Positions 4,719 to 42,439 are shown, numbered from the stretch's first letter. The stretch: 42,607 bases of DNA from a bacterium (GCA_030690175.1 JAUYHE010000006.1:1-42607); one strand, 5' to 3'. The notes: generated from the sequence alone by a model not told the origin. Numbers and translations are program-made.

Positions 4719-4747
4719 ATTCTAATTTGTTTACGACCAATTTTCAA
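4719..4747 (-). promoter_or_regulatory. Promoter of the rpsP operon
   Basis: Minus strand: TTGAAA (4747-4742), 17 nt, TAGAAT (4724-4719). There are 12 nt to the rpsP ATG and no SD. Confidence 0.55.
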
Positions 4748-5444
4748 GCGCGATCTTTGCTGCTTCTTGTTCTGCCAACTGTTTACTATTACCCGCTCCG
4801 ACGGCTGCCCTTTTTTTACCCAGGAAAACAGCGGTTTTAAACATCTTAGCGTGGTCGGGGCCGGTTTCCTCTAGGACCCTGTAGAGGGGCGTTACATTAA
4901 GAACCTCTTGCGACTTTTCCTGAAGAAGACTTTTGTAGTCTTTGTAAAGCTTTTTTTCAATTATTTCGGGAAGATAAATAAGAAGGTTTTTTTTTACAAA
5001 ATCGGTTACTTTTTGGGAGCCCAGATCTAGATAAATAGCTCCGATTAGAGCCTCAAATGTGTTGGCTAGGATATATTGTCTTTGACGGCCGCCGGTAGCT
5101 TCTTCGCCCCTGGAAAGATACAAATAAGCGCCTAGTTCCAGAACCGAAGCTGCCTTTGAAAGCATTCGGGCGTTTACTAAAGATGATCGAAAATTGGTCA
5201 AATCACCCTCGGGATGTCGGGGGTATTTTTTGTAGAGATGCTCTGATACGATTAATCCTAGCACCGCATCACCGAGAAATTCCAGCCTTTCGTTGTGGGG
5301 AGATTTTTCATCAGAATGCTCATTTAGGTAAGATCGATGGATAAATGCCATGCGTAGTAACTTTTTGTCTGTAAAATTTAAATTCAGTTTTTGCTCTAAC
5401 TTATTTAAAGTATTATCCATAGATCGCTTCGCGCTCTGTGTCAC
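4731..5444 (-). CDS. rnc: Ribonuclease III
   Basis: 237 aa with the RNase III signature NERLEFLGDAV and a C-terminal dsRBD (GPDHAKMF...AEQEAAKIAL). Confidence 0.95.
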   Translation of the reverse strand: MTQSAKRSMDNTLNKLEQKLNLNFTDKKLLRMAFIHRSYLNEHSDEKSPHNERLEFLGDAVLGLIVSEHLYKKYPRHPEGDLTNFRSSLVNARMLSKAASVLELGAYLYLSRGEEATGGRQRQYILANTFEALIGAIYLDLGSQKVTDFVKKNLLIYLPEIIEKKLYKDYKSLLQEKSQEVLNVTPLYRVLEETGPDHAKMFKTAVFLGKKRAAVGAGNSKQLAEQEAAKIALENWS

Positions 5445-6427: not shown

Positions 6428-8443
6428 TTAATCAGGCGTTACAAGAGGCTGCTTTTCCAATCCCTTTCTCAGACTTTTAGTGAAATTAACTTTTTGTTGG
6501 TTAAAAACTAAATTAGCTTCATTTCTGGCGGCGTTGATTAAAGGAAGGTCGGTTAACTCGGCAATTTTAAAGCTAGGTATTCCTGATTGGGCGGTGCCAA
6601 ATATATGTCCGGGACCGCGCATTTTTAAGTCTATCTTCGCTAGTTTCAGACCTAGGTGGTGTTTCTCCAATGAAGAAAGCCTTTCGATCACGTTTTCGGT
6701 ACTGCTTTCAGTAAAAAGCAAACAATACGCCTGCTGGTCACTTCGACCGACGCGACCGCGTAGTTGATGTAGAGACGCTAAGCCAAAGCGTTCTGCCGCC
6801 TCGATCATCATTACGGTGGCGTTTGGAACGTCAATTCCCACTTCGACAACTGGCGTGGCTACTAAAATATTCAGGTTGTTGTCTCTAAAATTTTCCAGGA
6901 CGATCTCCTTTTCGGAATGTTTCATTTTACCGTGCAGCAAGCCAAGTTTTAGATCTGGAAACACCTCTGTTTTAAGGTGACTATATTCTTCCTTGGCTGC
7001 TTTGGCTGTACTTAGCGTTTCCGAAGGTTCAATAATTGGGCAGATAATAAAGGCTTGCCTTTTTTCTAAAATTTTATTTCTCAAAAATTGATATGCTCTA
7101 TTTCTTTTCTCTGGTGGAACAACAAAAGTTTTTATCTTTTTTCTTCCTTGCGGTAGTTCGTCTAGGGTTGAGATATCCAGATCTCCAAATATTACTAAAG
7201 CGAGACTACGTGGTATTGGTGTTGCTGTCATTGTAAGCACGTGGGCCCTTTTTGCTTTGGTACGGAGCAGGGCTCTTTGCTCAACTCCAAAACGGTGTTG
7301 TTCATCGATAATGACCAGCGCCAGATTATCGAAAGTCACATTTTTGGATAAAATCGCGTGGGTGCCGACGATTATATCAAACGGCCCCCTCTTCTTACTA
7401 CTTGATGTTCGAATAGAAAGTTTTACACCCAAAGGAGAAAGGATACTAGTTAGGGTTTTGAGATGCTGCGCAGCAAGGATTTCTGTCGGCGCCATAAAAG
7501 CAGTCTGATAACCGTTGAGGTAAGCAACGTAGGCAGCAATAGCGGCAACCACTGTTTTACCACTGCCAACATCGCCCTGTAGAAGACGGTTCATAGATTT
7601 CCCAGCCGATAAATCGGCTAAAATTTCCTTTATAACTTTGTTTTGAGAAGAGGTAAGGTTGAACGGAAGGTTCGAAATAAGGGTGAGAATCTTTTCCTGA
7701 TGGATATTTAACGGCCTCGCTTTCACTAGTTTCTCCCAGGACGCCTTTCTCTCTATGGCCTGCAAACTAGTTATGAAGATTTCCTCAAATGCCAGGCGTC
7801 TTCGAGCTTGTTTGACTTGTTCTTCACTGTTTGGAAAATGAATTTGCCACAAAGCTTGCCTCTTTGTAATAAGGCTATTTCTAGATCTCGACTCACTTGA
7901 AAGGGTTTCATCAATTTTACCTACTACCATGGGTAACATTTCCTTTATCTTATTTCTTAACCATTTTGATGAAAGCCGGCTTGTTTCTGGATAAATAGGC
8001 ACCAGGCCTTTAGTGTGAAAACCACCTTTTGTACCGGGCTTGTTGAGTAATTCATAATCGGGATTAATTAACGTGGGCTTGTGAGAGAAATAATCAATCT
8101 TTCCAGCTAAGCCAATTTTAGCACCAGGAGTAACTGTTTTTACTAAAAATGGCTGGTTAAACCAAACAGCTTCAATACTTGCTGTTCCATCATTTATTGT
8201 CGCGAAGGTGAGGTTTTTACCATACCTAGTCCGAATATTTTGGATCTGCTCTACTTTTCCGGCTGTAGATACTCTCTCCCCTACTTTTAACGCGTTTATT
8301 TTTACGGGAGTGCCTAAATTCTCGTAACGAAAAGGATAGTGATGAACCAAATCTTCGACAGTCTCTATTTTTAATTTCTTTAGTCGGCTAGTGTGAAAAC
8401 TACCTACTTTTGGGATTTGTCCAATTGGAGTGTTTAGATTCAT
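6428..8443 (-). CDS. recG: ATP-dependent DNA helicase RecG
   Basis: 671 aa with an N-terminal OB wedge region and helicase motifs GDVGSGKT, DEQHRFG and TATPIPR. Confidence 0.95.
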   Translation of the reverse strand: MNLNTPIGQIPKVGSFHTSRLKKLKIETVEDLVHHYPFRYENLGTPVKINALKVGERVSTAGKVEQIQNIRTRYGKNLTFATINDGTASIEAVWFNQPFLVKTVTPGAKIGLAGKIDYFSHKPTLINPDYELLNKPGTKGGFHTKGLVPIYPETSRLSSKWLRNKIKEMLPMVVGKIDETLSSESRSRNSLITKRQALWQIHFPNSEEQVKQARRRLAFEEIFITSLQAIERKASWEKLVKARPLNIHQEKILTLISNLPFNLTSSQNKVIKEILADLSAGKSMNRLLQGDVGSGKTVVAAIAAYVAYLNGYQTAFMAPTEILAAQHLKTLTSILSPLGVKLSIRTSSSKKRGPFDIIVGTHAILSKNVTFDNLALVIIDEQHRFGVEQRALLRTKAKRAHVLTMTATPIPRSLALVIFGDLDISTLDELPQGRKKIKTFVVPPEKRNRAYQFLRNKILEKRQAFIICPIIEPSETLSTAKAAKEEYSHLKTEVFPDLKLGLLHGKMKHSEKEIVLENFRDNNLNILVATPVVEVGIDVPNATVMMIEAAERFGLASLHQLRGRVGRSDQQAYCLLFTESSTENVIERLSSLEKHHLGLKLAKIDLKMRGPGHIFGTAQSGIPSFKIAELTDLPLINAARNEANLVFNQQKVNFTKSLRKGLEKQPLVTPD

Positions 8444-31212: not shown

Positions 31213-31286
31213 TGGCTGCCGGGCTAGGATTCGAACCTAGATAGCGGGATCCAGAGTCCCGCGTCCTACCGTTAGACGACCCGGCA
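31213..31286 (-). tRNA. tRNA-Gln (anticodon CUG)
   Basis: 74 nt, U1-A72, loop CTCTGGA, encoded CCA. Confidence 0.9.
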
Positions 31287-31292
31287 CCGTCC

Positions 31293-31366
31293 TGGCTGGG
31301 GAACCAGGATTCGAACCTGGACTCACGGCTTCAAAGGCCGCTGTGCTACCGTTACACAATTCCCCA
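31293..31366 (-). tRNA. tRNA-Gln (anticodon UUG)
   Basis: 74 nt, U1-A72, loop CTTTGAA (A37), encoded CCA. Confidence 0.9.
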
Positions 31367-31367
31367 A

Positions 31368-31442
31368 TGGTCGGGGTGACACGATTTGAACGTGCGACCT
31401 CACGCTCCCAAAGCGCGCGCTCTACCCCTGAGCTACACCCCG
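31368..31442 (-). tRNA. tRNA-Pro (anticodon UGG)
   Basis: 75 nt, loop TTTGGGA, encoded CCA, 1-nt spacer to the next tRNA. Confidence 0.9.
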
Positions 31443-31490
31443 TTAGACTAGTGAATTATACCAAAGTGAACGTGGGATTTCTAATAGATG

Positions 31491-31576
31491 TGGTGCCGCG
31501 GAGAGGATTTGAACCTCCACAGGATTGCTCCCACTACGCTCTGAACGTAGCGCGTCTACCGTTCCGCCACCGCGGC
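31491..31576 (-). tRNA. tRNA-Leu (anticodon CAG)
   Basis: 86 nt, type II, loop TTCAGAG, encoded CCA. Confidence 0.9.
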
Positions 31577-33035: not shown

Positions 33036-33122
33036 GCGGACGTGGCGGAACTGGTAGACGCGCAGCCTTGAGGAGGCTGTGGGAGCAATCCTGTGGAGGT
33101 TCAAGTCCTCTCGTCCGCACCA
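33036..33122 (+). tRNA. tRNA-Leu (anticodon GAG)
   Basis: 87 nt, type II, loop TTGAGGA, encoded CCA. Confidence 0.9.
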
Positions 33123-33199
33123 GGACGGTTAGCTCAGTTGGCCAGAGCGCCTCGTTTACACCGAGGAGGCCGCAGGTTCAAGTCCTGCACCGTCCACCA
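33123..33199 (+). tRNA. tRNA-Val (anticodon UAC)
   Basis: 77 nt, loop TTTACAC, encoded CCA. It begins at the base right after the previous CCA. Confidence 0.9.
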
Positions 33200-33274
33200 G
33201 CCGGGATAGCTCAGTGGTAGAGCGTCCGCTTGAAGAGCGGAGCGTGGGCGGTTCGATTCCGTCTCCCGGCACCA
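33200..33274 (+). tRNA. tRNA-Phe (anticodon GAA)
   Basis: 75 nt, loop TTGAAGA, encoded CCA. It begins at the base right after the previous CCA. Confidence 0.9.
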
Positions 33275-36430: not shown

Positions 36431-36517
36431 TGGTGCTGGGAGTGGGACTCGAACCCACAAGGTGTTGCAACCAACGGATTTTAAGTCCGTCGCGTATACC
36501 AATTCCGCCATCCCAGC
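36431..36517 (-). tRNA. tRNA-Leu (anticodon UAA)
   Basis: 87 nt, type II, loop CTTAAAA, encoded CCA. Confidence 0.9.
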
Positions 36518-36595: not shown

Positions 36596-36604
36596 TGTTA
36601 TAAT
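36596..36604 (+). promoter_or_regulatory. Extended -10 promoter (plus strand) ahead of the split membrane gene and yidC
   Basis: TGtTATAAT preceded by T6. Confidence 0.5.
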
Positions 36605-36658
36605 CGCAAGATTACATCTCGCGGTTAGCAAGATCTAATCGCAAGATTACATCCCGCG
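36599..36658 (+). repeat. Tandem 25-nt repeat containing a -10-like hexamer
   Basis: TATAATCGCAAGATTACATCTCGCG (36599-36623) and TCTAATCGCAAGATTACATCCCGCG (36634-36658) are identical at 23 of 25 positions, with a 35-nt period. Confidence 0.8.
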
Positions 36659-36674
36659 CTTGTTTCTCTATAGA

Positions 36675-37009
36675 GTGATTCTTATCCCCGCTGGCGCCCT
36701 GTTAGTATTCGTGGTAATTATTTTTCTGGTTCTGGTTTTTGGCCCATTTAAAGACGGCCGAACTGATTCTGAAAGTAAGAAGATCGATGAGCAGCAAAAA
36801 AAAATAGCTTGGTTTCAAATATAGATAAAGACTGTGACAGCATTCCAAACGATATCGACAAATACCGATTTGACCACGATAATGATCGAACAGCCGATTC
36901 GAAAGACACCGATAATGACAATGACGGCGGAACATCTGGCGGCTCTTCCGGCGGTAGCTCTGGAGGTTCTAGCGGCGGTTCGAGCAACAAGCCCATACGT
37001 ATTCCCTAG
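36675..37009 (+). CDS. Membrane-anchored Asp-rich (DxDxD, thrombospondin-type-3-like) repeat protein, split by a -1 frame change at an A9 tract
   Basis: Frame A (GTG 36675 or TTG 36660, to TAG 36824) encodes a TM helix (ILIPAGALLVFVVIIFLVLVF). Frame B (open from 36791, tracked as 36809-37009) encodes DKDCDSIPNDIDKYRFDHDNDRTADSKDTDNDNDGG plus (GGS)n. The frames meet at A9 (36796-36804). Confidence 0.45.
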
Positions 37010-37043
37010 ATCTTCGGCTAGAAATAGGCTATCATAGACTACG

Positions 37044-37754
37044 ATGTTTGATCTATTTTATTCTCTTTGGCTGAAAGGCCTCTACCAACCAATCTACAAT
37101 TTAGTTATTTTCACCTACAATATTTCGCCTGGACCCAGCTTTGGTTTAACAATCATCGGTCTGGCTATTCTCATTCGGTTTCTTTTCCTTTATTTTACCC
37201 TTCTTGGGTACAAGCACGAGGAACAACTTGTACAGGTTCAACCCACCATAAATCGGATCGAAAAGGACAACTCCTTGAGTAACAAAGAAAAGCTGGCCAA
37301 AATATCGGCTATCACCAAACCTCTCGGTGTAAACCCTCTTCTGTCATCTTTACCTTTATTTGCGCAGCTAGTTTTCTTAGGTGTCTTATACCAAATAATA
37401 CAGGTAGGGATTTACAGTAATGGGTTTGGGAATTTGTATCGATTCGTTAGTCATCCTGGCGAAATAAACACCCAATTTTTTGGTTTTAATCTAGCCCACC
37501 CAAGCATTTTACTTGCTTTGATAGCAGCTGGTGTGCTACTTACGGAGCGTATCTGGGAGTATAATGAAAAAAAAGAAATTGGCGGTACGTTTGCTCAAAA
37601 ATGGGACCCATTGATTTGGCCCCTCGGTACATTTATAATTTTATTAATACTTCCAAGTGCAAAGGCGGTTTTTTTGATAACATCAGTGGTGTTTTCATTC
37701 GTTATCAAAAGTATTGTTCAAGTGAGCAAACCAAAACCAGCCGGTGCTAAGTAG
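37044..37754 (+). CDS. yidC: Membrane protein insertase YidC (short form)
   Basis: 236 aa with the GLTIIGLAILIRFLFLYFTL helix, the QPTINRIEK...KEKL amphipathic loop and further TM helices. Confidence 0.8.
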   Translation: MFDLFYSLWLKGLYQPIYNLVIFTYNISPGPSFGLTIIGLAILIRFLFLYFTLLGYKHEEQLVQVQPTINRIEKDNSLSNKEKLAKISAITKPLGVNPLLSSLPLFAQLVFLGVLYQIIQVGIYSNGFGNLYRFVSHPGEINTQFFGFNLAHPSILLALIAAGVLLTERIWEYNEKKEIGGTFAQKWDPLIWPLGTFIILLILPSAKAVFLITSVVFSFVIKSIVQVSKPKPAGAK

Positions 37755-42355: not shown

Positions 42356-42388
42356 AAGACGATTAATATTTCCCGCTACGTTCTTTTT

Positions 42389-42397
42389 TGGTATAAT
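42389..42397 (+). promoter_or_regulatory. Distal extended -10 promoter ahead of tRNA-Arg/Lys
   Basis: T6-TGgTATAATCG. It is near-identical to the 36591-36606 promoter. Confidence 0.45.
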
Positions 42398-42412
42398 CGA
42401 GTGCAACGAGAA

Positions 42413-42439
42413 TTACATCACGCTTTAGCGGGATATAAT
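42413..42439 (+). promoter_or_regulatory. Proximal promoter of tRNA-Arg/Lys
   Basis: TTACAT (42413-18), 15 nt, TATAAT (42434-39). There are 13 nt to the tRNA 5' end. Confidence 0.45.

What the first reader, a model, noticed from the sequence alone, without database searches (positions are those of the whole stretch)
36639..37009. Gene split by a -1 frame change exactly on an in-frame A_AAA_AAA slippery tract
Frame A encodes a plausible N-terminal membrane anchor and runs ...GAT GAG CAG CAA AAA AAA ATA..., stopping 7 codons later (TAG 36822-24). The -1 frame is open from 36791 and encodes an Asp-rich DxDxD repeat domain plus a (GGS)n tail ending at 37009. The junction is a run of nine A (36796-36804). 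In the zero frame it reads A_AAA_AAA, the classical X_XXY_YYZ heptamer for -1 ribosomal frameshifting. A runs of nine or more are also known hot spots for transcriptional slippage and for phase variation. A -1 shift gives one ~110-aa anchored surface protein (...EQQKK-NSLVSNIDKDCDS...). The alternatives are programmed recoding, a phase-variable surface protein (A9 off, A10 on) or a homopolymer assembly error.
Basis: partly seen in the sequence, partly recalled or inferred. Interest (0 to 1): 0.6.

Follow-up and report, generated by a model that had tools for sequence, protein, structure and literature searches.

The report
Poly-A frameshift in a yidC-leader gene
A small membrane-protein gene just upstream of yidC in a groundwater Woykebacteria (candidate phyla radiation) genome is broken by a two-base expansion of a run of A's; this is an ordinary slippage mutation rather than programmed recoding, because relatives and other samples carry the same gene intact.

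Summary
There is an A9 run at 36796-36804. ORF A (36660-36824) and the -1-frame ORF B (to 37009) are two halves of one gene.

The reading as recoding is not supported. Two other Woykebacteria lineages (L010, L012-14) carry an uninterrupted 187-189-aa orthologue at the same place, directly upstream of yidC. These orthologues hit the window in two frames that abut at the A run. The junction peptide QQKN(S/T)L is invariant and is encoded by A5 (L010) or by an in-frame A7 (L012). Contigs from two unrelated metagenomes show A7 (in frame) in the window's own gene. The window and an independent contig from its own study both show A9. No frameshift stimulator is present.

So this is a real +2 slippage mutation: a null allele, or at most a leaky one. 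Assembly error is unlikely. True phase variation remains possible but untested, because no raw reads or RNA data were available.

The protein has an N-terminal membrane anchor, thrombospondin-type-3-like Asp-rich repeats and a conserved ...P(I/L)x(I/V)P-stop end. The family is patchy among relatives. It meets the published in-silico criteria for YidC-monitoring arrest peptides. That is an untested lead and the most interesting by-product of this check.

The parts
36596..36604 (+). Extended -10-like element TGtTATAAT, the first -10 of a promoter module shared with other loci.
   Evidence: Read. The same module lies upstream of tRNA-Arg at 42384-42438 and directly on yidC in relative L004.
36603..36672 (+). 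35-nt tandem duplication of the module piece ATCGCAAGATTACATC(Y)CGCG. It places 20 nt between the -10-like TCTAAT (36634-36639) and the start codon.
   Evidence: Two exact 16-mers at 36603 and 36638. Alignment with the orthologue promoters, where TATAAT is 5-7 nt from the ATG.
36660..36824 (+). ORF A: the 5' half of the gene in frame 0. It runs from TTG to TAG 36822-24 and gives 54 aa (a transmembrane helix at about residues 5-28, then a charged linker ...EQQKK).
   Evidence: Hydropathy up to 3.2. Best codon-usage frame of six. Aligns with residues 1-48 of the orthologues.
36796..36804 (+). A9 tract, the site of the frame change. The in-frame ancestral form is A7 (CAA AAA AAT = Q K N).
   Evidence: A9 also in the X2 contig. 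A7 in the X6 and X8 contigs. L012 has an in-frame A7 and L010 has A5.
36803..37009 (+). ORF B: the 3' half in the -1 frame. It encodes NSLVSN, three Asp-rich DxDxDG-like loops, (GGSS)4, KPIRIP and TAG.
   Evidence: Best codon-usage frame. The four GGSS repeats use different codons, including both TCN and AGC serine codons. Aligns with residues 47-189 of the orthologues.
36833..36887 (+). Cluster of strain differences (36833, 36842, 36867-8, 36887), all non-synonymous in frame B. The window allele has Cys and Arg where the other allele and both orthologues have Gly.
37030..37046 (+). TATCAT, then 8 nt, then the ATG of yidC. This is a -10-like element in leaderless geometry, homologous to TATAAT-9 nt-ATG of yidC in L004. 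It could let yidC be expressed independently of the broken gene.
37044..37754 (+). yidC (membrane insertase), the downstream gene of the operon. It starts 34 nt after the stop of the small gene.
   Evidence: Pfam 60KD_IMP, E 1.3e-16.

Best explanation
The locus is one gene, the first gene of the yidC operon. It encodes a small membrane-anchored protein with thrombospondin-type-3-like, probably calcium-binding, Asp-rich repeats.

In the window's lineage a synonymous codon arrangement (CAA AAA AAT) made an in-frame A7 run. Replication slippage then lengthened it by two bases to A9. Translation therefore leaves the conserved frame after ...EQQKK and stops seven codons later, giving a 54-aa membrane stub without the repeat domain. 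This is a spontaneous frameshift allele (null or nearly so) that is polymorphic in nature. It is not a programmed recoding site.

Shown: the gene is conserved and uninterrupted in relatives. The frame break is at the tract. Both A9 and A7 alleles exist. There are no frameshift stimulators.

Inferred: a minority of full-length protein may still be made, because bacterial RNA polymerases slip efficiently on runs of 9 A (PMC5009743). Adding one A to the mRNA restores the frame. Also inferred: yidC can be expressed from its own TATCAT promoter in leaderless geometry, which would make loss of the upstream gene tolerable.

It is unresolved whether the allele is on its way to loss or is a reversible 'off' state.
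For: - Uninterrupted orthologues lie directly upstream of yidC in L010 (189 aa) and L012-14 (187 aa).
- Read with A7, the window protein aligns end to end with them at 58% and 53% identity, and QQKN(S/T)L is invariant across the junction.
- tblastn of the orthologues hits the window in two frames, 36672-36800 and 36797-36940, at E 1.6e-19 to 8e-22.
- The junction DNA is A5 in L010, an in-frame A7 in L012 and A9 in the window.
- A9 is reproduced in an independent contig (X2, depth 10, 0 gaps) on a different SNP haplotype.
- A7 occurs in contigs from two other studies, X6 and X8. Both changes are exactly -2, the in-frame length, whereas -1 would be the commonest slippage error.
- Other A9 tracts show no length difference in X1 or X2: one in frame inside RNase III at 4987-4995, one intergenic at 15385-93.
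- Signs of decay in the window allele: Gly to Cys and Gly to Arg at positions that are Gly in the other allele and in both orthologues; a TTG start where orthologues have ATG; and a 35-nt duplication that spoils the leaderless geometry.
- No RNA structure follows the tract.
Against: - Only assembled contigs were available, not raw reads, so tract-length heterogeneity within a population is unknown.
- The A7 contigs are at depth about 2. The X8 contig may derive from one duplicated fragment.
- ORF B is still fully open (68 codons), so the lesion is recent or some selection persists.
- The best-holding run, X1, has no contig over 36651-36842. This could hide heterogeneity.
- No RNA data hold the locus, so rescue by slippage is inferred only.
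Confidence: 0.78

Rival explanations
1. It is a true contingency (phase-variable) locus. The poly-A tract is kept because reversible slippage (A7 on, A8/A9 off, A10 on) switches a surface-exposed protein on and off within populations of this episymbiont-type bacterium.
For: In-frame and out-of-frame tract lengths both occur in near-identical sequence backgrounds. The tract lies in the 5' half of a gene for a membrane-anchored, probably exposed, protein. A9 sits on two SNP haplotypes. The gene is patchy among relatives and variable in repeat number, as expected for a dispensable surface protein.
Against: A 7-9 base poly-A run is at the low end for high-frequency switching. The tract arises from ordinary Gln/Lys/Asn codons and is A5 in one orthologue. 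Both strains of the window's aquifer are 'off', which shared ancestry explains equally well. The window allele also carries substitutions at invariant Gly residues and a weak start codon, which fits decay better. No within-sample mixture could be shown.
Confidence: 0.13
2. It is programmed recoding. The A9 allele is the normal gene, and the full-length protein is made by -1 ribosomal frameshifting on A_AAA_AAA or by programmed transcriptional slippage. This would give a fixed ratio of the 54-aa product to the 116-aa product.
For: There is a perfect X_XXY_YYZ heptamer in frame 0. Nine A's is the length at which bacterial RNA polymerase slips efficiently, as in Thermus thermophilus dnaX (PMC5009743). 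ORF B is still open. A9 is present in two strains.
Against: Orthologues encode the protein in a single frame with A5 or A7, and A7 alleles of the same gene exist. There is no downstream hairpin or pseudoknot (z +0.3) and no SD-like stimulator upstream. In E. coli, A_AAA_AAA is much less shift-prone than A_AAA_AAG (PMC5009743). An essential gene (RNase III) carries an in-frame A9 in the same window, so A9 is not reserved for recoding here.
Confidence: 0.04
3. It is a homopolymer sequencing or assembly error. The real genome has A7 or A10 and an intact gene.
For: Homopolymers are error-prone. A7 contigs exist in other samples. The best-holding run, X1, has no contig across the tract.
Against: A different assembler on a different run gives A9 at depth 10 with no gaps. 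That run carries a different SNP haplotype, so it is not the same data. The difference from the in-frame form is two bases, not one. No other homopolymer differs between the window and the X1/X2 contigs over 23 kb.
Confidence: 0.05

Closest known systems
Frameshift alleles and pseudogenes at homopolymeric tracts, and phase-variable (contingency) genes in bacteria (for example PMC2831843, PMC1891110)
   Same: A coding-region homopolymer changes length by slippage and throws the reading frame. In-frame and out-of-frame alleles coexist in nature. The gene encodes a membrane or surface protein.
   Different: The tract is poly-A of only 7-9 bases. Reversible high-frequency switching has not been shown. 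The organism is an uncultured candidate-phyla-radiation bacterium, for which my literature search listed no paper combining phase variation with the candidate phyla radiation.
Non-programmed rescue of frameshifted genes by transcriptional slippage on long poly(A) tracts (Buchnera, Blochmannia) and Thermus thermophilus dnaX slippage at a run of nine (reviewed in PMC5009743)
   Same: A run of 9 A on the coding strand, where adding one A to the mRNA restores the frame. The genome is small and moderately AT-rich.
   Different: No transcript data exist here. The tract is not conserved, and intact alleles exist. Any rescue would be incidental.
E. coli dnaX-type programmed -1 ribosomal frameshifting (A_AAA_AAG with an upstream SD and a downstream hairpin)
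   Same: A lysine-codon heptamer in frame 0, with a short zero-frame extension ending in a stop.
   Different: No stimulators, no conservation, and the heptamer ends in A rather than G. The orthologues are single-frame.
Sec/YidC monitoring substrates (MifM, CliM, ApcA and the 'NSP-stop'/'NAP-stop' classes; PMC10987492, PMC13183943)
   Same: A small unannotated ORF directly upstream of and co-oriented with yidC. It has an N-terminal transmembrane segment, a spacer longer than 30 aa, a conserved C-terminal motif ending in Pro followed by the stop codon, and a patchy phylogenetic distribution.
   Different: No translation arrest has been shown. No SD-sequestering hairpin is present, and yidC has no SD. 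The middle of the protein is a conserved repeat domain rather than a free spacer. In the window the ORF is broken.
Thrombospondin type 3 (TSP_3, PF02412) calcium-binding repeats
   Same: Repeated DxDxDG(I/V)xD loops. Orthologue L010 scores E 3e-5 against TSP_3 and E 0.008 against thrombospondin-1 (1ux6).
   Different: The score is just under Pfam's cut-off (24.1 vs 25 bits). The window's shortened three-loop version does not reach significance (E 1.4). The protein is a tiny single-pass membrane protein.

Membership tests
Programmed -1 ribosomal frameshift site | Slippery heptamer X_XXY_YYZ in the zero frame | tested here: met
   A_AAA_AAA at 36797-36803 in frame 0.
Programmed -1 ribosomal frameshift site | Stimulatory element: a downstream hairpin or pseudoknot 5-9 nt after the site, and/or an upstream SD-like sequence | tested here: not met
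   Folds of 36805-36870 and 36805-36900 are no better than shuffles (z +0.31). There is no GGAG, GAGG or AGGA upstream of the tract.
Programmed -1 ribosomal frameshift site | The frameshift arrangement is conserved in orthologues | tested here: not met
   L010 and L012-14 encode the protein in one frame with A5 or A7. A7 alleles of the same gene exist.
Transcriptional-slippage recoding or rescue | Run of at least 9 A or T | tested here: met
   A9 at 36796-36804. The length threshold is from PMC5009743.
Transcriptional-slippage recoding or rescue | Heterogeneous transcripts (A10 and so on) from an A9 template | not testable with these tools
   No RNA run holds the locus. Three metatranscriptomes gave zero depth.
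Simple-sequence contingency locus (phase variation) | Repeat tract inside the ORF whose length variants switch the frame, with both states found in natural isolates | tested here: met
   A9 in the window and X2; A7 in X6 and X8. The A7 evidence is at low depth.
Simple-sequence contingency locus (phase variation) | High-frequency reversible switching within one population or clone | not testable with these tools
   Only Logan contigs were served, not raw reads. X1 has no contig over the tract.
Simple-sequence contingency locus (phase variation) | The tract is maintained or over-long compared with orthologues | tested here: inconclusive
   A5 in L010, A7 in L012, A7/A9 in the window species. There is some lengthening but no long conserved tract.
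Sec/YidC monitoring substrate (arrest peptide), in-silico criteria of PMC10987492 | (i) A small ORF of unknown function directly upstream of and co-oriented with yidC | tested here: met
   The stop lies 34 nt (window), 7 nt (L010) and 22 nt (L012) before the yidC ATG. There are no significant Pfam or NCBIfam hits for the whole protein.
Sec/YidC monitoring substrate (arrest peptide), in-silico criteria of PMC10987492 | (ii) An N-terminal signal or transmembrane segment | tested here: met
   Kyte-Doolittle 19-residue mean up to 3.2 over residues 5-28. The hydrophobic block is conserved in the orthologues.
Sec/YidC monitoring substrate (arrest peptide), in-silico criteria of PMC10987492 | [quoted passage not shown] | tested here: met
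   KPIRIP-stop (window), QPLRIP-stop (L010), KPIPVP-stop (L012-14) and the remnant RPIPVP-stop (L008). Only 3-4 lineages are available.
Sec/YidC monitoring substrate (arrest peptide), in-silico criteria of PMC10987492 | (iv) A spacer longer than 30 aa between the localisation signal and the C-terminal motif | tested here: met
   About 85 aa in the window form and about 155 aa in the orthologues.
Sec/YidC monitoring substrate (arrest peptide) | [quoted passage not shown] | tested here: not met
   Only the structural part could be tested. There is no stable structure between the stop and the yidC ATG (z about 0), and yidC has no SD. Stalling itself is not testable here.
Thrombospondin type 3 repeat (PF02412) | A match to the family profile above the curated cut-off | tested here: inconclusive
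   L010 orthologue: 24.1 bits, E 3e-5, against a cut-off of 25. L012: E 0.0047. Window form: E 1.4.

The most novel reading that the evidence does not exclude
The conserved family has an N-terminal membrane anchor, an acidic TSP3-like spacer and an invariant ...P(I/L)x(I/V)P-stop end, and it sits immediately upstream of yidC. It may be a YidC/Sec 'monitoring substrate' of Woykebacteria, a termination-stage arrest peptide like the NSP-stop and NAP-stop classes. It would be the first from the candidate phyla radiation. The A7/A9 tract would then toggle this feedback loop, or the coupling of yidC translation to it, between strains.
Probability: 0.12. Interest if true: 0.65.

Novelty: new member of a known kind. 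Interest (0 to 1): 0.33.

Why it matters
On its own the finding is an ordinary homopolymer frameshift. It is useful mainly as an annotation correction: the two small ORFs should be recorded as one disrupted gene, not as a recoding site.

It also shows that strains of one uncultured groundwater Woykebacteria species differ by an on/off lesion in a membrane-protein gene. That is the raw material of phase variation, in a group for which my search turned up no report of it.

The by-product may matter more. The check uncovered an unannotated, patchily distributed gene family at the head of the yidC operon. It meets all four published sequence criteria for Sec/YidC-monitoring arrest peptides. That gives a concrete candidate to test in a phylum-level group where regulation of membrane-protein insertion is unknown.

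Tried and rejected
The rest of the genome could not be searched for paralogues or for other split genes.

**Direct searches with the small protein found nothing**
- The search for homologous proteins, whole protein and region 1-80: no hit.
- Exhaustive phmmer of ORF B: only 4 spurious repeat-protein hits.
- Metagenome and viral contig scans: no hit.
- Phage DNA search: no hit.
- Exact look-ups of ORF A and ORF B: no hit.
- For a while this made the gene look like an orphan. Low complexity and word-based candidate selection were the cause. The orthologues were found only through synteny with yidC.

**Interim idea dropped**
- I first read about 354 nt (36676-37029) as a young insert relative to L004. 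I dropped this once L008 remnants and the L010/L012 orthologues showed that the gene is older and has been lost repeatedly.

**Negative results**
- RNA data: none hold the locus.
- Rfam: only the neighbouring tRNA.
- A MifM-style SD-sequestering hairpin: none.
- Similar DNA elsewhere in the window or in the fetched loci: none.
- NCBIfam and PDB sequence searches of the window form: nothing significant.

**Claim I decided not to make**
- I considered calling the gene 'hypervariable' because of its SNP cluster. I rejected that as unproven, because similar SNP clusters between the same strains occur elsewhere, for example at 4834-5048 and 6465-6512.

Full report
**1. The observation**

The window holds nine A at 36796-36804. 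In frame 0 the codons are GAG CAG CAA AAA AAA ATA GCT TGG TTT CAA ATA TAG. ORF A (TTG 36660 to TAG 36822-24, 54 aa) therefore carries the heptamer A_AAA_AAA at 36797-36803.

The -1 frame is open from 36791 and runs to TAG 37007-09. It encodes NSLVSNIDKDCDSIPNDIDKYRFDHDNDRTADSKDTDNDNDGGTSGGSSGGSSGGSSGGSSNKPIRIP. One extra A, or two fewer, joins the frames.

The tract itself is not unusual. The window has three A/T runs of 9 or more, against about six expected from a first-order Markov model. One of them (T9 at 4987-4995, which is A9 on the coding strand) lies in frame inside an intact RNase III gene.

What is beyond chance is that two coding halves meet at the tract. Codon usage makes frame 0 the best of six frames over 36678-36797 (+0.36 bits per codon) and the -1 frame the best over 36803-37006 (+0.16). 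Real genes of the window score 0.23 +/- 0.09 and off-frames -0.68. The four GGSS repeats are written with different codons, including both TCN and AGC serine codons. That points to constraint at the protein level.

**2. The organism and the neighbourhood**

The best-matching public runs are groundwater metagenomes. The closest named relative of the adjacent yidC is Candidatus Woykebacteria (candidate phyla radiation).

The gene sits between a tRNA-Leu gene on the minus strand (36431-36517) and yidC (37044-37754; Pfam 60KD_IMP). A Band-7 gene follows yidC.

Upstream lies a promoter-like module: TGtTATAAT, then CGCAAG, then ATTACATCYCGCG and more. The module recurs ahead of tRNA-Arg at 42384-42438 and sits directly on yidC in relative L004. 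An earlier first-reader note (e1-3367729) had pointed to it.

Only about a third of the window's genes have an SD-like tetramer. Many have a -10 box 7-10 nt before the start codon, which is leaderless geometry.

**3. Orthologues settle what the two ORFs are**

Direct searches with the small protein failed. Its low-complexity composition is the likely reason. Synteny succeeded where those searches failed.

Starting from a list of YidC homologues, I fetched their loci. Two further Woykebacteria lineages carry an uninterrupted gene directly upstream of yidC:
- L010 924-1493: 189 aa, genome GCA_040876265.1, YidC 75% identical.
- L012/L013/L014 915-1478: 187 aa, YidC 73% identical.

Read with A7, the window protein aligns with them from first to last residue at 58% and 53% identity. 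Shared features are:
- the hydrophobic N-terminus (R.I..(I/L)PAG.AL...);
- the junction peptide QQKN(S/T)L;
- the DxDGD and DHDNDG loops;
- a Gly/Ser/Asp-rich tail;
- the last residues, (K/Q)P(I/L)(R/P)(I/V)P.

tblastn of the orthologues against the window gives two matches in different frames: residues 5-48 on 36672-36800 and residues 47-94 on 36797-36940. They abut at the A run, with E 1.6e-19 and 8e-22.

The junction DNA is CAA CAG AAA AAT in L010 (A5), CAA CAA AAA AAC in L012 (A7, in frame) and CAG CAA AAA AAA A in the window (A9). The conserved state is therefore a single reading frame. The long A run is a by-product of Gln-Lys-Asn codons.

**4. Is A9 real, and do in-frame alleles exist?**

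Only Logan contigs were available, not raw reads.

*A9 is reproduced.* In run X2 (same study as the best holder X1), a 541-nt contig at depth 10 covers 36698-37238 with no gap, so it carries A9. It differs from the window at five positions, all in ORF B. It therefore represents another strain and another assembler.

*A7 occurs elsewhere.* In X6 (another groundwater study), a 239-nt contig covers 36736-36929 with two bases missing at 36796, which is A7. In X8 (a freshwater sediment study), a 151-nt contig covers 36670-36820 with no mismatch and the same two bases missing. Both contigs are at depth about 2. The X8 evidence may stem from one duplicated fragment, because X8 holds almost nothing else of the genome. 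Even so, two independent samples both show exactly -2, the length that restores the frame, rather than -1, the commonest slippage error.

*Controls.* X1 contigs are identical to the window over many kilobases. No other homopolymer differs in X1 or X2, including the two other A9 runs.

I conclude that A9 is real in the window's population and that intact A7 alleles exist elsewhere.

**5. Tests for programmed recoding**

- No RNA structure follows the tract. Folds of 36805-36870 and 36805-36900 are no better than shuffles (z +0.31).
- No SD-like sequence precedes it.
- The same review says bacterial RNA polymerase slips with high efficiency on runs of 9 A or T.

Incidental production of some A10 transcripts, and hence some 116-aa protein, is therefore plausible. 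It is inferred only, because three metatranscriptomes held nothing of the locus.

Together with the single-frame orthologues, this rules out a conserved, programmed frameshift for practical purposes.

**6. Signs that the window allele is decaying**

At 36833 and 36887 the window has Cys and Arg. The other allele (X1, X2, X6) and both orthologues have the Gly of the DxDGD and DxDxDG loops. At 36867-8 the window has Arg where the others have Pro or Ser. At 36842 the window keeps the ancestral Ile.

The start codon is TTG, where the orthologues have ATG placed 5-7 nt after a TATAAT box (leaderless). In the window, a 35-nt duplication of the module puts 20 nt without an SD between the -10-like TCTAAT and the TTG.

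yidC keeps its own TATCAT-8 nt-ATG, homologous to the yidC promoter of L004. It need not depend on the upstream ORF.

ORF B still has no stop codon, so the lesion is recent. SNP clusters of similar density occur elsewhere between these strains, so I do not claim that this gene is exceptionally variable.

**7. What the gene is**

The product has one transmembrane helix at about residues 5-28 and a charged linker. It has three Asp-rich loops in the window species and about eight in the orthologues, followed by a flexible Gly/Ser tail.

The L010 orthologue matches Pfam TSP_3 at E 3e-5 (24.1 bits against a cut-off of 25) and thrombospondin-1 (1ux6) at E 0.008. The shortened window form does not reach significance. 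A membrane-anchored, calcium-binding, thrombospondin-type-3-like repeat protein is the best description. The function itself is inferred.

The gene is patchy:
- Absent upstream of yidC in L002/3, L004-L007, L009, L011 and L015-L020.
- Reduced to a remnant in L008, where both ends survive (RMIIIPAGA... and ...RPIPVP-stop) but the frame is disrupted.

**8. An unplanned lead**

The family satisfies the four sequence criteria that Fujiwara et al. (PMC10987492) used to find Sec/YidC-monitoring arrest peptides:
- a small unannotated ORF upstream of yidC;
- an N-terminal transmembrane segment;
- a conserved C-terminal motif;
- a spacer longer than 30 aa.

Its motif ends in Pro followed by the stop codon. 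So do the experimentally confirmed NSP-stop and NAP-stop classes, which stall with the stop codon in the A site.

Against the lead: there is no hairpin between the stop and the yidC ATG. yidC has no SD. The middle of the protein is itself conserved. I rate this reading at about 12%.

**9. Verdict**

The locus is a conserved gene broken by a +2 expansion of an in-frame A7 tract. It is a natural, polymorphic frameshift allele, not programmed -1 frameshifting and very probably not an assembly error.

The available data cannot tell whether the tract works as a reversible switch. A per-read count of tract lengths in the source runs would decide.

Noticed in passing
window 36596-36676 and 42384-42438; L004 866-922; L012 about 860-915: A conserved promoter-like module (TGnTATAAT, CGC..G, ATTACATCYCGCG, ..., TATAAT) stands in front of unrelated genes in Woykebacteria: yidC or its upstream ORF, and tRNA-Arg/Lys. 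In run X1 it reaches 100-170x summed contig depth against about 11x for the genome, so many copies or many organisms carry it. In the window a 35-nt piece is tandemly duplicated, and the minus strand of 36598-36675 folds into a strong hairpin (-27.3 kcal/mol, z -4.6).
   Followed up: partly
L010 924-1493; L012 915-1478; window 36660-37009; L008 about 1882-1970: An unannotated gene family at the head of the yidC operon. It has a transmembrane anchor, TSP3-like Asp-rich repeats and a conserved (K/Q/R)P(I/L)(R/P)(I/V)P-stop end 7-34 nt before the yidC ATG. It is patchily distributed and meets the published in-silico criteria for YidC-monitoring arrest peptides.
   Followed up: partly
window 4987-4995 (minus-strand gene 4731-5444): An A9 run on the coding strand lies in frame inside an intact RNase III gene. 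A8 runs also lie in frame in yidC (37567-37574) and in other genes. Long A runs in coding sequence are tolerated in this genome.
   Followed up: partly
window 36651-36842 in run X1: The best-holding run has 11x contigs that end at 36650 and resume at 36841. None of the sampled 31-mers of 36690-36860 is present, although both flanks are identical to the window. This could be an assembler artefact next to the high-depth module, or real heterogeneity in this stretch. It remains unexplained.
   Followed up: partly
window 36929 onward in run X6: The A7-bearing X6 contig diverges from the window after 36929. It continues ...VKNEKDPHHD... in frame B instead of the GGSS tail. This suggests variation in repeat number or in the tail between close relatives. 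The orthologues have about 70 more residues of repeats.
   Followed up: no
window 37030-37046; L004 915-933; L009 178-196; L011 about 1470-1503: Where the upstream ORF is absent, yidC sits 8-9 nt behind a TATAAT box (leaderless geometry). Where the ORF is present (L010, L012), yidC has neither an SD nor a clear -10 and may depend on translational coupling. The window has both the ORF and a TATCAT box.
   Followed up: partly
window 20515-42607: Seventeen tRNA genes lie in 42.6 kb, interleaved with housekeeping genes. Several are in tight clusters (31213-31576, 33036-33274).
   Followed up: no
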